Assembly: GCA_964645535.1 (NCBI GenBank)
Contig: CAZYCQ010000018.1
Span: forward strand, 18,249-33,502
Source of the DNA: an uncultured archaeon
GTDB taxonomy: Archaea; Asgardarchaeota; Heimdallarchaeia; Heimdallarchaeales; Kariarchaeaceae
DNA: 15,254 bases
Direction: 5' to 3'
The notes under the pieces were generated by a model. That model saw only the letters and a program-made list of their open reading frames with translations. It was not told the DNA's origin and made no database searches. This document shows positions 9,222-15,254 of the stretch, in pieces. The first letter of the stretch is position 1. Every line of letters begins with the position of its first letter. Made by a program: the position numbers and the translations under genes.

Positions 9222-10019
9222 TTACTTAATCCGTATTTTCTTCCGAAACGAAAAATCAATTGGATTATCTTCCAGATTTATTTCTTCAAGATTTGGACAT
9301 AGCTTGATTAGATTTGATGGTACTTCTGTCAATTCATTTCCGGAAAGATCAAGCTTTTTCAAACTATATAATTCTTTTTTGGAACCAATTTTCAAGGTCA
9401 CCAAATTATTCTCTGAAAGATTCAATTCAACAAGGGAAAGGGGCAATTGCATCAAATCAAAAGAGAAGAGTCGATTCCCTCGTAGGTTGAGCCTTGCCAC
9501 TTCCATTCCTTGGAAAAATCCATCCGGTATACTCGAAATCTCGTTATTGGACAGATCTAGAATATCCAGATCCAGTGTTTTTACAAGGTTCGATCGAATT
9601 TCATTCAGTGCATTCCTATGCAAATCAAGTATGCGAAGATTTCGAAGATGATTAAATGTGCCCTCTTCAATTTGTCTGATCCTGTTTTCCCCGAGAAAAA
9701 GCTTTTCTAGCTCTCTGTTATTCCAGAAAAGTTGTTTTGGAATACATTCCAATCGGTTACGGGAAAGATTGACTTCCTTCAGATTTGGCATTTTTGCAAA
9801 AAAGTGGTCAGGAACTGTGTTAAGGTCATTTAGCTGGAGATCAATTTTTTCAAGATAAGGTAGCCGAAGTTTTAGTGAAGAGGGAATCTCAACCAGTCTC
9901 ATCTCAGAAAGATAAAGTTCCACAACTCTAATTTCCCCGTCTACCTGTCGTGTGACGATCTGGTTCCGTGAAATCCCCAAGTGCCTGATCAAACTCTGTA
10001 TCTGTTCCGAATCATCCAT
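9222..10019 (-). CDS. Leucine-rich repeat (LRR) protein, about 9-10 repeats, no other recognisable domain
   Basis: There are consecutive units of about 24 aa matching LxxLxLxxNxLxxIP. Examples are LEKIDLQLNDLNTVP, LKEVNLSRNRLECIP, LEKLFLGENRIRQI, LRILDLHRNALNEI, LDILDLSNNEISSIP, LVELNLSENNLVTL and LKKLDLSGNELTEVP. No signal peptide is evident. Confidence 0.85.
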   Translation of the reverse strand: MDDSEQIQSLIRHLGISRNQIVTRQVDGEIRVVELYLSEMRLVEIPSSLKLRLPYLEKIDLQLNDLNTVPDHFFAKMPNLKEVNLSRNRLECIPKQLFWNNRELEKLFLGENRIRQIEEGTFNHLRNLRILDLHRNALNEIRSNLVKTLDLDILDLSNNEISSIPDGFFQGMEVARLNLRGNRLFSFDLMQLPLSLVELNLSENNLVTLKIGSKKELYSLKKLDLSGNELTEVPSNLIKLCPNLEEINLEDNPIDFSFRKKIRIK

Positions 10020-14406: not shown

Positions 14407-14874
14407 TTAATCCGTCGTTATAAGCCCTTTGAGAATGGCCAGACCAATTGAAAGCGTTCCGATAGACCCTATATCTCCAACAGGGAGTTGCACCGATCTT
14501 CCCATGTCCAAGTCTTTTCTGGATAGGCCTGGATCGCTTCCTCCGAATACAATTGCATATTTTCTCCCCTTGATTTGTTCTGCTAGATTTTTATCCAATT
14601 TCTCTTTTCCATAGGGTGGTGGTGCAACAAGAATCACCTCTTCAGGAGAGAAAAGATCAACTACATCCTGTAAAGAATATAGAACCAGAAAATTTGCACG
14701 TTCCTTAAAGGCCAATTTTTGAGCCGCAGGCACCCCCTTCTGTGCCGCAGACCCTTGAGCCTGTGAAATAACCATAGTTTTGTATCCAAGTCCCGAGGCA
14801 ATTCGAACAAATTCCGTACAACGACTTGAAGAGCTTATGTTATGCATAACCACGATCGGCCATATGTCTTCCAT
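14407..14874 (-). CDS. SPOUT-like (alpha/beta-knot) protein of unknown function, archaeal DUF-type
   Basis: The C-terminal IVFGGSDPGLSRKDLDMG..VQLPVGDIGSIGTLSIGLAIL resembles SpoU/TrmH motifs 2-3 (fG.E..GLs ... IP ... SLN...A..I). The gene lies 23 nt upstream of PPAT and is co-directional with it. Confidence 0.4.
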   Translation of the reverse strand: MEDIWPIVVMHNISSSSRCTEFVRIASGLGYKTMVISQAQGSAAQKGVPAAQKLAFKERANFLVLYSLQDVVDLFSPEEVILVAPPPYGKEKLDKNLAEQIKGRKYAIVFGGSDPGLSRKDLDMGRSVQLPVGDIGSIGTLSIGLAILKGLITTD

Positions 14875-14968
14875 ATCATTCTCTTAATAGGATCATTTAT
14901 GAGAGATAGGGTTGGTCACATTCATAAAACATCCCTCAGTTACTTTTTCTTGTTACCTAATTTAATTC

Positions 14969-14975
14969 TTATATA
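14969..14975 (+). promoter_or_regulatory. Candidate TATA box driving the 5S locus
   Basis: TTATATA sits in AT-rich DNA. A start about 25 nt downstream would fall near 15000, just before the leader hairpin AUCAAC-UACG-GUUGAU (15003-15018). Confidence 0.35.
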
Positions 14976-15026
14976 CTATGGCAATTTGATTTGATATGTA
15001 AGATCAACTACGGTTGATATCCGGAG

Positions 15027-15046
15027 GGTTCTCCCACCAGAGAGTT
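15027..15046 (+). other. 5' strand of the predicted bulge-helix-bulge (BHB) processing motif (leader / start of the 5S 3' half)
   Basis: CUCCCA 15031-15036 pairs with UGGGAG 15167-15172. CCAG 15037-15040 pairs with CUGG 15160-15163. AGA 15041-15043 forms a bulge. GUU 15044-15046 pairs with AAC 15157-15159. GGU 15027-15029 pairs with ACC 15175-15177. Confidence 0.55.
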
Positions 15047-15091
15047 AAGCCCGGCATCGGACGACCCATGTACTGATTTCCGCGAGGGATC
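15037..15091 (+). repeat. Direct repeat copy 1 (55 bp, perfect)
   Basis: ccagagagttaagcccggcatcggacgacccatgtactgatttccgcgagggatc is identical to 15200-15254, at an offset of 163 nt. Confidence 0.95.
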
Positions 15092-15165
15092 GGGAAAGGC
15101 GTCACGCTGTGATACGATCACGGTCATAGAGCCGGTGTGCACCCAGAAACATTCCGAACCTGGAT
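15043..15165 (+). rRNA. rrf: 5S rRNA encoded in circularly permuted order: 3' half (15043-15113), ACG triloop (15114-15116), 5' half (15117-15165)
   Basis: 15117-15165 (AUCACGGUCAUAGAGCCGGUGUGCACCCAGAAACAUUCCGAACCUGGA) matches the archaeal 5S 5' half. 15043-15113 (AGUUAAGCCCGGCAUC...GUACUG...CGCGAGGGAUCGGGAA...GCUGUGAU) matches the 3' half. Helix I is AUCACGGU (15117-15124) paired with GCUGUGAU (15106-15113). Helix II is GCCGG (15131-15135) paired with CCGGC (15051-15055). Confidence 0.8.
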
Positions 15166-15177
15166 TTGGGAGTGACC
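15157..15177 (+). other. 3' strand of the predicted BHB processing motif (end of the 5S 5' half / trailer)
   Basis: In order: AAC, then CUGG, then the AUU bulge (15164-15166), then UGGGAG, then UG, then ACC. See the partner strand at 15027-15046 for the pairings. Each 3-nt bulge lies 3' of the 4-bp helix on its own strand, as in canonical hBHBh' substrates. Confidence 0.55.
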
Positions 15178-15205
15178 TGTCCCCGCAAAGGTGCTTTCTC
15201 CAGAG
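15166..15205 (+). other. 40-nt spacer between the 5S 5' half and the second 3'-half copy (trailer of unit 1, or a BHB intron)
   Basis: Its ends can form the same BHB with the second copy. GGGAG 15168-15172 pairs with CUUUC 15194-15198 (two G-U pairs). CUGG 15160-15163 pairs with CCAG 15200-15203. The bulges are AUU 15164-15166 and AGA 15204-15206. AAC 15157-15159 pairs with GUU 15207-15209. Confidence 0.5.
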
Positions 15206-15254
15206 AGTTAAGCCCGGCATCGGACGACCCATGTACTGATTTCCGCGAGGGATC
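15200..15254 (+). repeat. Direct repeat copy 2 (55 bp, perfect, runs to the window end)
   Basis: This is identical to 15037-15091. It contains the BHB strand and the first 49 nt of a second 5S 3' half (15206-15254). Confidence 0.95.

What the first reader, a model, noticed from the sequence alone, without database searches (positions are those of the whole stretch)
15003..15254. 5S rRNA gene with its halves in permuted order, helix I closed by a triloop
Both halves of a clearly archaeal 5S rRNA are present on the + strand, but in the order 3' half (15043-15113) - ACG - 5' half (15117-15165). The natural 3' end (GCUGUGAU) and 5' end (AUCACGGU) are separated by only 3 nt, so they form helix I as a hairpin of 8 bp, two of them G-U. 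The natural internal junction (GAACCUGGA | AGUUAAGCC, loop B / helix II-III region) is split apart and flanked by non-5S sequence. The two halves together total about 120 nt, the normal 5S size. Upstream of the 3' half there is no 5' half, only a TATA-like element and a leader hairpin. This is the architecture of circularly permuted tRNA genes, which are known in a red alga and a few archaea. To my knowledge it has not been described for an archaeal 5S rRNA. It implies either a circular 5S or a circular intermediate that is later opened at helix I.
Basis: partly seen in the sequence, partly recalled or inferred. Interest (0 to 1): 0.92.

Follow-up and report, generated by a model that had tools for sequence, protein, structure and literature searches.

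The report
Circularly permuted 5S rRNA genes, Heimdall archaea
In a group of Asgard archaea the gene for the small ribosomal RNA (5S) is written back-to-front, with the second half before the first, and is flanked by RNA-splicing signals that should cut it out and join its ends into a ring. This would explain why no 5S gene could be found in these genomes.

Summary

- **The locus.** Window 15043-15165 is a complete 5S rRNA in the order 3' half, ACG, 5' half.
- **Permuted versus normal order.** A covariance model built from ordinary haloarchaeal 5S sequences that I permuted in silico scores 57.4 bits here (E 5e-12). The same sequences unpermuted score 15-18 bits, and Rfam's 5S model stays below threshold.
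  - The leader and trailer form a canonical bulge-helix-bulge (BHB) splicing motif exactly at the split site. It predicts a 123-nt excised unit.
  - A second tandem unit starts at 15206. The window and the contig end inside it.
- **Relatives.** 14 further loci carry the same architecture. They fall into three lineages: Kariarchaeaceae-like, Heimdallarchaeaceae (including AB_125-like), and one unclassified.
- **Covariation.** Compensatory changes support the 5S fold, the helix I hairpin and the BHB helices.
- **Published context.** No 5S gene could be predicted in two closed Heimdallarchaeum genomes.
- **Most likely mechanism (inferred, no RNA data).** The tRNA-splicing endonuclease cuts at the BHB and RtcB ligates the ends into a circular 5S rRNA. 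This may be the mature form or an intermediate.

I found no description of this in the searchable literature. I rate it a new variant of a known kind, of high interest.

The parts
14952..14975 (+). Promoter-like block ending in a TATA-like box, TTATATA at 14969-14975, about 25-30 nt upstream of the leader hairpin
   Evidence: Read directly. The block gttacctaatttaattcttaWata is conserved in L017, L038 and L035 although their flanks are only about 73% identical. Promoter function is inferred.
15003..15018 (+). Leader hairpin AUCAAC-UACG-GUUGAU: 6-bp stem, UACG/CACG loop. It lies upstream of the processing helix and is not part of the excised unit.
   Evidence: MFE folds. Present in L017, L035 and L038. 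Function unknown.
15023..15036 (+). Leader strand of the outer processing helix (h') of unit 1. It pairs with 15167-15182.
   Evidence: MFE fold. U15030-G15174 becomes A-U in L038, a compensatory change. Covariation statistics.
15037..15040 (+). CCAG: leader strand of the central 4-bp helix (H) of the BHB. It pairs with CUGG at 15160-15163 and mimics the 5' strand of helix III.
   Evidence: The central helix is 97.9% paired across 12 units, and all 4 pairs show changes on both sides.
15041..15043 (+). 3-nt bulge AGA. Predicted endonuclease cut after G15042, so the unit starts at A15043.
   Evidence: Geometry. The position of the cut within the bulge comes from established knowledge of archaeal BHB cleavage and was not tested here.
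15043..15113 (+). Unit 1, 3' half of 5S rRNA: loop B 3' side, helix II 3' strand, helices IV/V with loops E and D, helix I 3' strand
   Evidence: R1 alignment, model positions 1-69. Rfam partial alignment.
15114..15116 (+). ACG triloop that joins the natural 3' end to the natural 5' end and closes helix I
   Evidence: In relatives the cap is 3-6 nt and not conserved in sequence.
15117..15165 (+). Unit 1, 5' half of 5S rRNA: helix I 5' strand, loop A, helix II 5' strand, helix III with loop C. It ends at U15165 if the cut falls after the second bulge nucleotide.
   Evidence: R1 alignment, model positions 73-120 ending at 15164. BHB geometry.
15164..15166 (+). 3-nt bulge AUU. Predicted cut after U15165.
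15167..15182 (+). Trailer strand of the outer processing helix of unit 1 (UGGGAG.GACCU.UCC)
   Evidence: For L038 unit 1, which is nearly identical here, the cognate leader/trailer duplex is -23.5 kcal/mol.
15190..15206 (+). Leader of unit 2: outer-helix strand GGUGCUUUCU (15190-15199), central-helix strand CCAG (15200-15203), bulge AGA (15204-15206)
   Evidence: Repeat D1. In L038 this strand pairs with the unit-2 trailer AGAAAGCAAC in 10 of 11 positions.
15206..15254 (+). Unit 2, start of its 3' half, cut off by the window end. The source contig continues 27 nt to ...GCUGUAUUACGAU, the unit-2 type of helix I.
   Evidence: A complete unit 2 with an oligo-T terminator is seen in relative L038.

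Best explanation
These are genuine, functional, circularly permuted 5S rRNA genes. They are probably the only 5S genes of these Heimdall-group Asgard archaea.

**Proposed pathway**
1. One promoter transcribes a leader, unit 1 (3' half, ACG, 5' half), a spacer, unit 2 and a terminator.
2. In each unit the leader pairs with its own trailer. This forms a bulge-helix-bulge motif whose central 4-bp helix borrows the 3' strand of helix III.
3. The tRNA-splicing endonuclease (EndA) cuts in both 3-nt bulges and releases a 122-123-nt piece.
4. The ends are held side by side and joined by the RNA ligase RtcB. This restores loop B (junction ...CCUGGAU|AGUUAAGCC...).
5. The product is a covalently closed 5S rRNA with helix I capped by the ACG loop.

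I think the circle, or at least the helix-I-closed form, is most likely what enters the ribosome, because nothing further is needed to make a complete 5S fold.

**Shown here:** gene order, 5S identity, the BHB geometry and its covariation, conservation across lineages, and failure of the conventional 5S models.

**Inferred:** cleavage, ligation, circularity and the mature form.
For: **5S identity in permuted order**
- The permuted-5S model R1 was built from six conventional haloarchaeal 5S sequences.
- R1 scores:

| Locus or unit | R1 bits |
|---|---|
| window | 57.4 |
| L038 unit 1 / unit 2 | 57.3 / 56.3 |
| L017 | 49.6 |
| L041 | 65.9 |
| L042 unit 1 / unit 2 | 59.0 / 57.8 |
| L045 | 73.2 |
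| L026 | 101.7 |
| L050 | 92.7 |
| L032-34 and L046-49 | 87-100 |

- The conventional model R2 gives 14-33 bits on the same loci.

**5S fold, including the closed helix I**
- 93.6% of cells are paired, and 24 of 34 pairs change on both sides.
- The helix I hairpin is 97.6% paired, with 4 compensatory pairs.
- 0 of 500 shuffles reach this, and slid controls reach at most 42%.

**BHB**
- 87% of cells are paired.
- The outer helix has 9 of 9 pairs, and the central helix 4 of 4 pairs, with changes on both sides.
- 0 of 500 shuffles reach the observed percentage paired or covariation score.
- Per-unit table.

**Three-way covariation in L042**
- The helix III 5' strand, the helix III 3' strand and the leader H' strand change together. 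They read CUGG/CCAG/CUGG in unit 1 and CAGG/CCUG/CAGG in unit 2.

**Cognate pairing**
- Cognate leader/trailer duplexes are -19 to -23.5 kcal/mol. Non-cognate ones are -5 to -15.4.

**Real in DNA**
- Three independent assemblies of the source organism agree on the leader/3'-half junction.
- L038 spans both units.
- L041 and L042 lie in contigs of 669 kb and 1.13 Mb.

**Under selection**
- The units are 96-97% identical between the window and L017/L038.
- By contrast, flanking DNA between the window and L017 is about 73% identical, and the neighbouring proteins are 61-75% identical.

**No conventional gene known**
- Wu et al. 2022 could not predict a 5S gene in two closed Heimdallarchaeum genomes (PMC8813620).

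**A closed helix I is tolerated**
- E. coli ribosomes work with 5S whose native ends are joined by a 4-nt connector (PMC7283268).

**Cap sequences**
- Helix I caps are not conserved in sequence. In Heimdallarchaeaceae they are stable UNCG-type tetraloops, which look like structural caps rather than cleavage sites.
Against: - No RNA-level data were available, so cleavage, ligation and circularity are all inferred.
- EndA and RtcB were not looked for in these genomes. They are near-universal in archaea, which is established knowledge and was not tested here.
- In a single sequence a strict BHB scan finds chance matches with the same score. The case therefore rests on comparative data.
- The register of the BHB alignment (A4) was chosen per lineage by me.
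- The predicted junction in the Kariarchaeaceae type has one nucleotide more than the 5S consensus (GGAUAGUUAAG versus GGAAGUUAAG).
- The circle is no more stable than shuffled sequence (z = 0.11).
- Whether the source MAG also has a conventional 5S elsewhere could not be checked.
- In Heimdallarchaeaceae the first BHB would excise 153 nt, so an extra step or an expansion segment must be assumed.
Confidence: 0.6

Rival explanations
1. Circular intermediate only. The unit is excised and circularised as above. The circle is then opened in the helix I cap, and possibly trimmed, to give an ordinary linear 5S rRNA. This is what happens to permuted tRNA precursors.
For: - It is the precedent set by permuted tRNA genes and by most archaeal 16S/23S circles (PMC3326292; PMC12918454).
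- Unit 2 in the window lineage has a U-U mismatch next to the cap, which makes that end looser.
Against: - No 5S end-processing enzyme is known that would recognise a 3-6-nt cap of variable sequence.
- The tRNA case relies on RNase P and tRNase Z, which do not apply here.
- UNCG-type caps in Heimdallarchaeaceae look structural.
- Opening the circle is not needed for the 5S fold.
Confidence: 0.2
2. Linear permuted 5S. The unit is released, by EndA or another nuclease, but is not ligated. The mature RNA has a closed helix I and free ends in loop B. This is comparable to the permuted mitochondrial 5S of brown algae, where the final product is itself permuted.
For: - Permuted final products exist (PMC4267664).
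- The linear unit already folds into the 5S shape without ligation.
Against: - In archaea, the ends left by BHB cleavage are ligated in every well-studied case (established knowledge: tRNA exons, introns, pre-16S and pre-23S).
- The BHB holds the two ends together.
- Loop B and helix III are a conserved protein-binding region where a nick is less likely to be tolerated.
- The predicted junction restores the consensus sequence exactly in L026/L050. In Heimdallarchaeaceae it does so after the second BHB.
Confidence: 0.12
3. Conventional gene with an intron. The 5' half of unit 1, the 40-nt spacer acting as a BHB intron, and the 3' half of unit 2 together make an ordinary 5S after splicing. The first 3' half and the last 5' half would be leftovers.
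For: - The tandem arrangement allows it.
- Rfam and R2 align this reading at 25-30 bits.
- In L038 the unit-2 leader can pair with the unit-1 trailer at -15.4 kcal/mol.
Against: - It is impossible for the single-unit loci. L041, L045, L026, L050 and all Heimdallarchaeaceae loci have one unit. In L045 an oligo-T run follows the trailer directly, and in L026 within about 30 nt.
- In L042 the non-cognate central helix is mismatched (CCAG versus CAGG) and the duplex is only -5.0 kcal/mol.
- The natural ends are only 3 nt apart, so the product would still need cuts in both caps.
Confidence: 0.03
4. Assembly artefact, or a decaying pseudogene next to a canonical 5S gene elsewhere.
For: - The contig ends inside the repeat.
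- Short-read assemblies demonstrably mishandle this locus. L040 is a collapsed chimera of L038, L017 probably is too, and Logan contigs break 31 nt into the repeat.
Against: - The same order is recovered in 15 loci from many samples and assemblers, including contigs of 669 kb and 1.13 Mb.
- Compensatory substitutions maintain the fold and the BHB.
- The unit is much better conserved than its flanks.
- Promoter-like and terminator elements are conserved.
- No 5S could be predicted in closed Heimdallarchaeum genomes.
Confidence: 0.03

Closest known systems
Circularly permuted tRNA genes (Cyanidioschyzon merolae nucleus; Thermofilum pendens)
   Same: - The 3' half is encoded upstream of the 5' half on one strand.
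- The natural termini are joined by a short intervening sequence.
- The leader and trailer form a BHB at the site where the halves must be joined.
- Expression goes through an endonuclease- and ligase-made circle (Soma et al. 2007, as cited in PMC4267664; the T. pendens case is from my own knowledge).
   Different: - The RNA here is 5S rRNA, not tRNA.
- The linker is only 3-6 nt.
- RNase P and tRNase Z, which open the tRNA circle, have no known 5S counterpart, so the circle may be final.
- Some loci carry two tandem units, each with its own BHB.
BHB-dependent circularisation of archaeal pre-16S/pre-23S rRNA, including mature circular 23S and the permuted 23S of Pyrococcus and Thermococcus
   Same: - A leader/trailer processing stem carries a BHB.
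- EndA cleavage and RtcB ligation give circular rRNA.
- In several phyla the circle is reported to stay in the ribosome (PMC12918454; PMC7758197).
   Different: - Those genes are collinear, and any permutation arises at the RNA level.
- Here the gene itself is permuted, and ligation is needed to restore an internal loop (loop B), not to join the natural ends.
- The literature states that 5S is not processed this way.
Permuted mitochondrial 5S rRNA of brown algae and other stramenopiles (Rfam mtPerm-5S; Valach et al. 2014)
   Same: A 5S rRNA in which helix I is replaced or closed by a hairpin and the ends lie elsewhere (PMC4267664).
   Different: - It is organellar.
- The ends lie at the three-way junction between the alpha and gamma domains, not in loop B.
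- There is no BHB and no ligation, and the final RNA is the permuted linear molecule.
Engineered cp5S rRNA in E. coli (Huang et al. 2020)
   Same: The native 5S ends are joined by a short connector, and the ribosomes still function (PMC7283268).
   Different: It is artificial. The RNA is opened in loop C or loop D and embedded in 23S rRNA. It is not a natural gene and not a circle.
Low-level circular 5S reads in Sulfolobus solfataricus and Halobacterium (Danan et al. 2012)
   Same: Circular 5S molecules of about 123 nt were detected by circRNA-seq (PMC3326292).
   Different: - They come from ordinary collinear genes and are joined at the natural ends.
- They are minor species, were not validated by RT-PCR, and may be degradation-related.

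Membership tests
5S rRNA (Rfam RF00001) | Genomic sequence reaches the family's gathering score (38 bits) in collinear order | tested here: not met
   No hit at gathering threshold. Best scores are 12.8 bits in the window, 25.4 bits in L038 and 26.3 bits in L032. My conventional model R2 gives 15-18 bits in the window and 14-33 bits elsewhere.
5S rRNA (Rfam RF00001) | 5S sequence motifs and the three-domain secondary structure (helices I-V, loops A-E), once order is corrected | tested here: met
   The permuted model R1, built from independent conventional 5S sequences, gives 57.4 bits in the window and 50-102 bits in relatives, all full length. 93.6% of pair cells are paired and 24 of 34 pairs are compensatory. 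The circular fold gives the canonical structure.
Circularly permuted RNA gene expressed through a BHB-made circle (as for permuted tRNA genes) | 3' half upstream of 5' half on the same strand, natural termini joined by a short linker | tested here: met
   The linker is 3-6 nt in all 17 units.
Circularly permuted RNA gene expressed through a BHB-made circle (as for permuted tRNA genes) | Leader and trailer form a bulge-helix-bulge motif (two 3-nt bulges on opposite strands separated by 4 bp) at the point where the halves must be joined | tested here: met
   - The motif appears in the MFE fold and in the per-unit table.
- It is canonical hBHBh' in the Kariarchaeaceae-type units.
- It is relaxed, with no inner helix, in L026/L050 and in Heimdallarchaeaceae BHB-1.
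- L017 fails, probably because its assembly is collapsed.
Circularly permuted RNA gene expressed through a BHB-made circle (as for permuted tRNA genes) | Circular RNA with the predicted junction exists in cells | not testable with these tools
   No transcriptome data could be searched.
Circularly permuted RNA gene expressed through a BHB-made circle (as for permuted tRNA genes) | The genome encodes the splicing endonuclease EndA and the ligase RtcB | not tested
   Neither is in the 15-kb window. The whole MAG could not be scanned. Both are near-universal in archaea (established knowledge).
mtPerm-5S (stramenopile mitochondrial permuted 5S) | Ends located at the junction of the alpha and gamma domains, with a 5' hairpin replacing helix I; the linear permuted RNA is the product | tested here: not met
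   Here the break is in loop B, between helix III and helix II. The description of mtPerm-5S comes from PMC4267664.

The most novel reading that the evidence does not exclude
- The ribosomes of Heimdall-group Asgard archaea contain a covalently closed circular 5S rRNA.
- It is made from the only 5S genes these organisms have, and those genes are permuted.
- The trait is ancestral to at least Kariarchaeaceae plus Heimdallarchaeaceae.
- In Heimdallarchaeaceae, maturation uses two nested BHB steps. The first ligation creates the second splice motif.
Probability: 0.4. Interest if true: 0.92.

Novelty: new variant of a known kind. Interest (0 to 1): 0.86.

Why it matters
- **It would be unprecedented for this gene.** 5S rRNA is one of the most conserved and most easily annotated genes in biology. 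I found no description of a cellular lineage in which the gene is circularly permuted and must be cut and re-joined to make a functional molecule.
- **It extends the role of the splicing machinery.** The archaeal tRNA-splicing machinery would then process the third rRNA as well as 16S and 23S. It also raises the possibility of a circular 5S inside ribosomes.
- **It gives a concrete answer to a published puzzle.** 5S genes "could not be predicted" in closed Heimdallarchaeum genomes (PMC8813620).
- **It has a practical consequence.** MAG quality standards that require a 5S gene would systematically mis-score this group. A permuted covariance model fixes that.
- **The lineage matters.** The Heimdall group is the archaeal lineage considered closest to eukaryotes, so its ribosome biogenesis is of special interest.

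Tried and rejected
- **Rfam at gathering threshold and ARAGORN on the whole window.** Nothing found.
- **Genome-collection pattern scan.** Most of the 28 hits were false. Haloarchaeal hits were ordinary 5S genes followed by sequence that matched the third anchor, probably a tRNA (not checked). Bacterial hits were chance matches. Only L017 and L026 were real.
- **Strict single-sequence BHB scanner.** It finds the expected motif in the window, but also unrelated matches with the same score. A single-sequence BHB is therefore not evidence on its own, and I relied on covariation instead.
- **Thermodynamic stability of the circle against shuffles.** z = 0.11, uninformative.
- **L017 as a clean single-copy example.** Rejected. 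Its leader (unit-1 type) does not pair with its trailer (unit-2 type). L040 shows that exactly this chimera arises when L038's two units are collapsed by an assembler.
- **'Intron' reading of the spacer.** Considered and rejected (see rival explanations).
- **Synteny walks from DUF2122 homologues.** L043 and L044 showed no 5S of either kind within 4 kb, so they are uninformative about those genomes.
- **Taxonomy of the L026/L050 lineage.** Its neighbouring protein has no named relatives, so the taxon is unresolved.
- **Use of a recalled sequence.** The H. marismortui 5S sequence I recalled from memory was used only as a BLAST probe to locate real 5S genes in fetched loci. It was not used as data.
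Full report
**1. What is in the window**

- AGUUAAGCC...GCUGUGAU (15043-15113) is the 3' part of an archaeal 5S rRNA.
- It is followed by ACG, then by AUCACGGUCAUAG...CCGAACCUGGA(U) (15117-15165), which is the 5' part.
- Rfam finds no 5S at its gathering score anywhere in the window. With permissive settings it gives only 12.8 bits, by forcing the leader into the place of the missing 5' half.

Two things were missed.
- A 163-nt direct repeat shows that the 3' half starts again at 15206. The window ends inside this second copy.
- The source contig is NCBI GCA_003696825.1, RFHV01000650.1, of which the window is the reversed start. It continues only 27 nt further, to ...GCUGUAUUACGAU, and then stops.

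Two Logan assemblies from other runs (SRR7905022, SRR7905024) carry the identical leader and end exactly 31 nt into the repeat. I read this as a k-mer graph branching where two different upstream contexts meet. If so, both contexts are present in the reads.

**2. The splicing motif**

The minimum-energy fold of 15000-15215 pairs the leader with the trailer as follows.
- GGAGGGUUCUCCCA (15023-36) pairs with UGGGAG.GACCU.UCC (15167-82).
- CCAG (15037-40) pairs with CUGG (15160-63).
- A 3-nt bulge AGA (15041-43) lies on one strand and a 3-nt bulge AUU (15164-66) on the other.
- GUU (15044-46) pairs with AAC (15157-59).

This is the canonical helix-bulge-helix-bulge-helix substrate of the archaeal tRNA-splicing endonuclease, in the correct handedness. 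Cleavage after the second nucleotide of each bulge is the rule from the tRNA-intron literature (my own knowledge). It would release exactly 15043-15165, which is 123 nt. Joining the ends gives ...GAACCUGGAU|AGUUAAGCC..., which restores loop B. Folded as a circle, this RNA adopts the textbook 5S shape. The central 4-bp helix uses the 3' strand of helix III, and the leader strand mimics helix III's 5' strand. The BHB and helix III are therefore mutually exclusive, and helix III can form only after processing.

**3. A direct test of permuted against conventional order**

I could not feed an artificial rejoined sequence to Rfam, so I inverted the test.
- I extracted six ordinary 5S genes from haloarchaeal loci that the pattern scan had fetched.
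- I permuted them in silico at GGA|AGUUAAG, with neutral 3-nt linkers that differed between sequences.
- I built a covariance model of the permuted set (R1) and of the unpermuted set (R2), using the same base pairs for both.

| Target | R1 (permuted) | R2 (conventional) |
|---|---|---|
| Window | 57.4 bits at 15043-15164, full length, E 5e-12 | 18 and 15 bits |
| Full contig, 40-nt spacer treated as an insertion | not applicable | 28.7 bits |

**4. Relatives**

One scan of 185,579 species genomes and one scan of JGI metagenomes used a pattern requiring AGTTAAGCC/Y...GTACTG...ATTYCGAAC in permuted order. Together they returned five true loci: L017, L026 and L032-34. Synteny walks from neighbouring proteins added L035, L038, L040, L041, L042, L045, L046-49 and L050. 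R1 scores every one of these at 50-102 bits, and R2 at 14-33 bits. They fall into three lineages.

*(a) Kariarchaeaceae type: window, L017, L035, L038, L041, L042, L045.*
- The homologues of the neighbouring DUF2122 gene are named Candidatus Kariarchaeaceae or Heimdallarchaeota.
- L045 is from a genome labelled Kariarchaeaceae.
- NCBI's label for the source MAG, 'Methanobacteriota archaeon', looks outdated.

*(b) Heimdallarchaeaceae type: L032-34, L046-49.*
- The neighbouring HypF is 65-75% identical to proteins of Heimdallarchaeota archaeon, Heimdallarchaeota AB_125 and Heimdallarchaeaceae.
- L046 and L047 encode the AB_125-cluster HypF itself.

*(c) An unclassified archaeon: L026 and L050.*

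L017 shares gene order with the window (P-type ATPase, cytidylyltransferase, DUF2122, 5S). Its flanks are only about 73% identical in DNA and 61-75% in protein, yet its 5S unit is 96.7% identical.

**5. The complete locus, and the intron alternative**

L038 (GCA_027054415.1) spans the whole locus in this order:
1. promoter-like block;
2. leader hairpin;
3. leader 1;
4. unit 1;
5. trailer 1;
6. leader 2 (GGUGCUUUCU CCAG [AGA]);
7. unit 2, with helix I reading GCUGUAUU-ACG-AUUACGGU;
8. trailer 2 (CUGG [AUA] AGAAAGCAAC);
9. hairpin and a U9 terminator.

The unit-2 helix I matches the last bases of the window's contig, so the source organism has the same two-unit locus.

A tandem array could also be read as 5' half, intron, 3' half. 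Three findings reject this.
- L041, L045, L026, L050 and all Heimdallarchaeaceae loci have a single unit. In L045 an oligo-T run follows the trailer directly, and in L026 within about 30 nt.
- L042 lies in a 1.13-Mb contig and has two units with completely different flanks. Unit 1 has CCUUAGGUA CUGG [AUA] ... CCAG [AUA] UACCUUAAGG. Unit 2 has CUUAUUUAA CAGG [AUA] ... CCUG [AUA] UUAAAUAAG. Each leader matches only its own trailer. The helix III 5' strand changes in step, CUGG to CAGG.
- Duplex energies favour cognate pairs. In L042 they are -21.1 and -18.9 kcal/mol, against -5.0 for the intron pairing. In L038 they are -23.5 and -20.1, against -15.4.

L040 is a Logan assembly of the same organism as L038. 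It is a collapsed chimera of leader 1, unit 2 and trailer 2. L017 has the same composition, and its leader and trailer do not pair. I therefore treat L017 as probably collapsed, not as an exception.

**6. Covariation**

On the model-based alignment of 12 units (A3):
- 93.6% of cells form standard pairs, and 24 of 34 pairs show changes on both sides.
- The helix I hairpin is 97.6% paired, with four compensatory pairs.
- No shuffle out of 500 reaches the observed values, and structures slid by 1-3 columns reach at most 42% paired.

On a gapless alignment of the BHB segments of 12 units (A4):
- 87% of cells pair.
- All nine outer-helix pairs and all four central-helix pairs show changes on both sides.
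- 0 of 500 shuffles reach the observed percentage paired or covariation score, and slid controls reach at most 51%.

Caveat: I chose the BHB register for each lineage (offset -6, -5 or -37 from the unit start). The comparison between lineages is therefore partly fitted. The changes within the Kariarchaeaceae type at fixed offset are not fitted. Examples are window versus L038 (U-G to A-U), L042 unit 1 versus unit 2, and L045. The same holds for L026 versus L050 (G-C to A-U).

**7. Predicted junctions**

| Lineage | Predicted junction | Relation to the 5S consensus |
|---|---|---|
| Kariarchaeaceae type | YRG-AU\|A-GUUAAGCC | one nucleotide longer |
| L026/L050 | CCCGGAA\|GUUAAGCC | exactly the consensus |
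| Heimdallarchaeaceae, first BHB (CCUAGUAAGG UCAG [AAA] ... CUGA [AAA] CCUUACUAGG) | excises 153 nt, including a conserved 32-nt hairpin | longer; see below |

In Heimdallarchaeaceae, ligation would place that hairpin next to the bulge. This creates a second BHB: CCUG [AA|A] A-GCGUCUGGA ... UCCAGAUGU-U CGGG or CAGG [AA|A] GUU. Its excision would give a 121-nt circle with the consensus junction CUGAA|AGUUAAG. This nested two-step scheme is a hypothesis. The H' strand does vary as CGGG or CAGG, that is U-G or U-A.

**8. Mechanism and its status**

Shown:
- the gene order;
- 5S identity;
- the BHB and its covariation;
- conservation and selection;
- invisibility to standard 5S models.

Inferred:
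- EndA cleavage;
- RtcB ligation;
- a circular product.

The final form cannot be decided from sequence. I favour a molecule that stays closed, for four reasons.
- The caps are short (3-6 nt) and unconserved.
- In Heimdallarchaeaceae the caps are UNCG-type tetraloops.
- No enzyme is known that would open them.
- E. coli ribosomes tolerate 5S with joined native ends (PMC7283268).

Mature circular 23S rRNA has also recently been reported in several archaeal phyla (PMC12918454).

**9. Literature**

- Searches for permuted or circular 5S in archaea or Asgard found only the brown-algal mitochondrial case (PMC4267664), low-level unvalidated circular 5S reads in Sulfolobus (PMC3326292), and the engineered E. 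coli construct.
- PMC12918454 states that 16S and 23S, 'but not 5S rRNAs', are processed through circles.
- Wu et al. [quoted passage not shown] This is what a permuted gene predicts. It also speaks against a hidden canonical copy in that family.
- Two other Asgard lineages, Borrarchaeum and Jordarchaeum, are reported with an ordinary detectable 5S gene.
- The library does not cover subscription journals, so an existing description cannot be excluded.

**10. Verdict**

This is a real, conserved and apparently undescribed architecture. It extends the known logic of permuted genes with a BHB from tRNA to 5S rRNA, in the archaeal group closest to eukaryotes. Novelty: new variant of a known kind. 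Interest: 0.86.

Noticed in passing
window 14407-14874 (minus strand); also L017, L035, L038, L041, L042, L045: A DUF2122 / SpoU-like 'RecB-family nuclease' gene lies next to the permuted 5S locus in all Kariarchaeaceae-type loci. It is lost from that position in L043 and L044. It could be a 5S-related RNA methylase or nuclease, or the synteny could be coincidental.
   Followed up: partly
L032-L034, L046-L049 (about 37 nt upstream of each unit start): Heimdallarchaeaceae units carry a conserved 32-nt hairpin between the first BHB and AGUUAAG. Ligation at the first BHB would create a second BHB whose excision yields a consensus 5S junction. This suggests nested two-step splicing of a circle.
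   Followed up: partly
L040 versus L038; L017; L002, L003, L035-L037: Short-read and k=31 assemblies either collapse the two tandem units into a chimeric single unit (leader 1 + unit 2 + trailer 2) or break 31 nt into the repeat. Copy number and BHB quality read from MAGs can therefore be misleading.
   Followed up: yes
source record of the window (GCA_003696825.1; protein P0001): NCBI names the source 'Methanobacteriota archaeon'. All close homologues of its DUF2122 protein that carry an informative name are from Kariarchaeaceae or Heimdallarchaeota, and gene order matches L017 ('Heimdallarchaeota archaeon'). The label looks wrong or outdated.
   Followed up: partly
window 15003-15018: A leader hairpin AUCAAC-UACG-GUUGAU (UNCG-type loop; CACG in L017 and L038) is conserved upstream of the processing helix. 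It lies outside the excised unit and its role is unknown.
   Followed up: partly
window 9222-10019 (minus strand): A 265-aa protein made almost entirely of eukaryote-type leucine-rich repeats (LRR_8, E 3.8e-40) sits next to the L3-L4-L23-L2 ribosomal protein operon.
   Followed up: no
L041 370-454: A tRNA gene with a 14-nt insertion in the anticodon region, probably a BHB intron, lies near the permuted 5S in a relative. tRNA genes also lie about 180 nt from the 5S in L032-L034.
   Followed up: no
L006-L031 (haloarchaeal loci): The permuted-order search pattern is matched by ordinary haloarchaeal 5S genes, because sequence just downstream supplies an ATTYCGAAC match, probably a tRNA (not checked). 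This is a systematic false positive for simple pattern searches (match length 125-129 versus 116-118 for true hits).
   Followed up: yes
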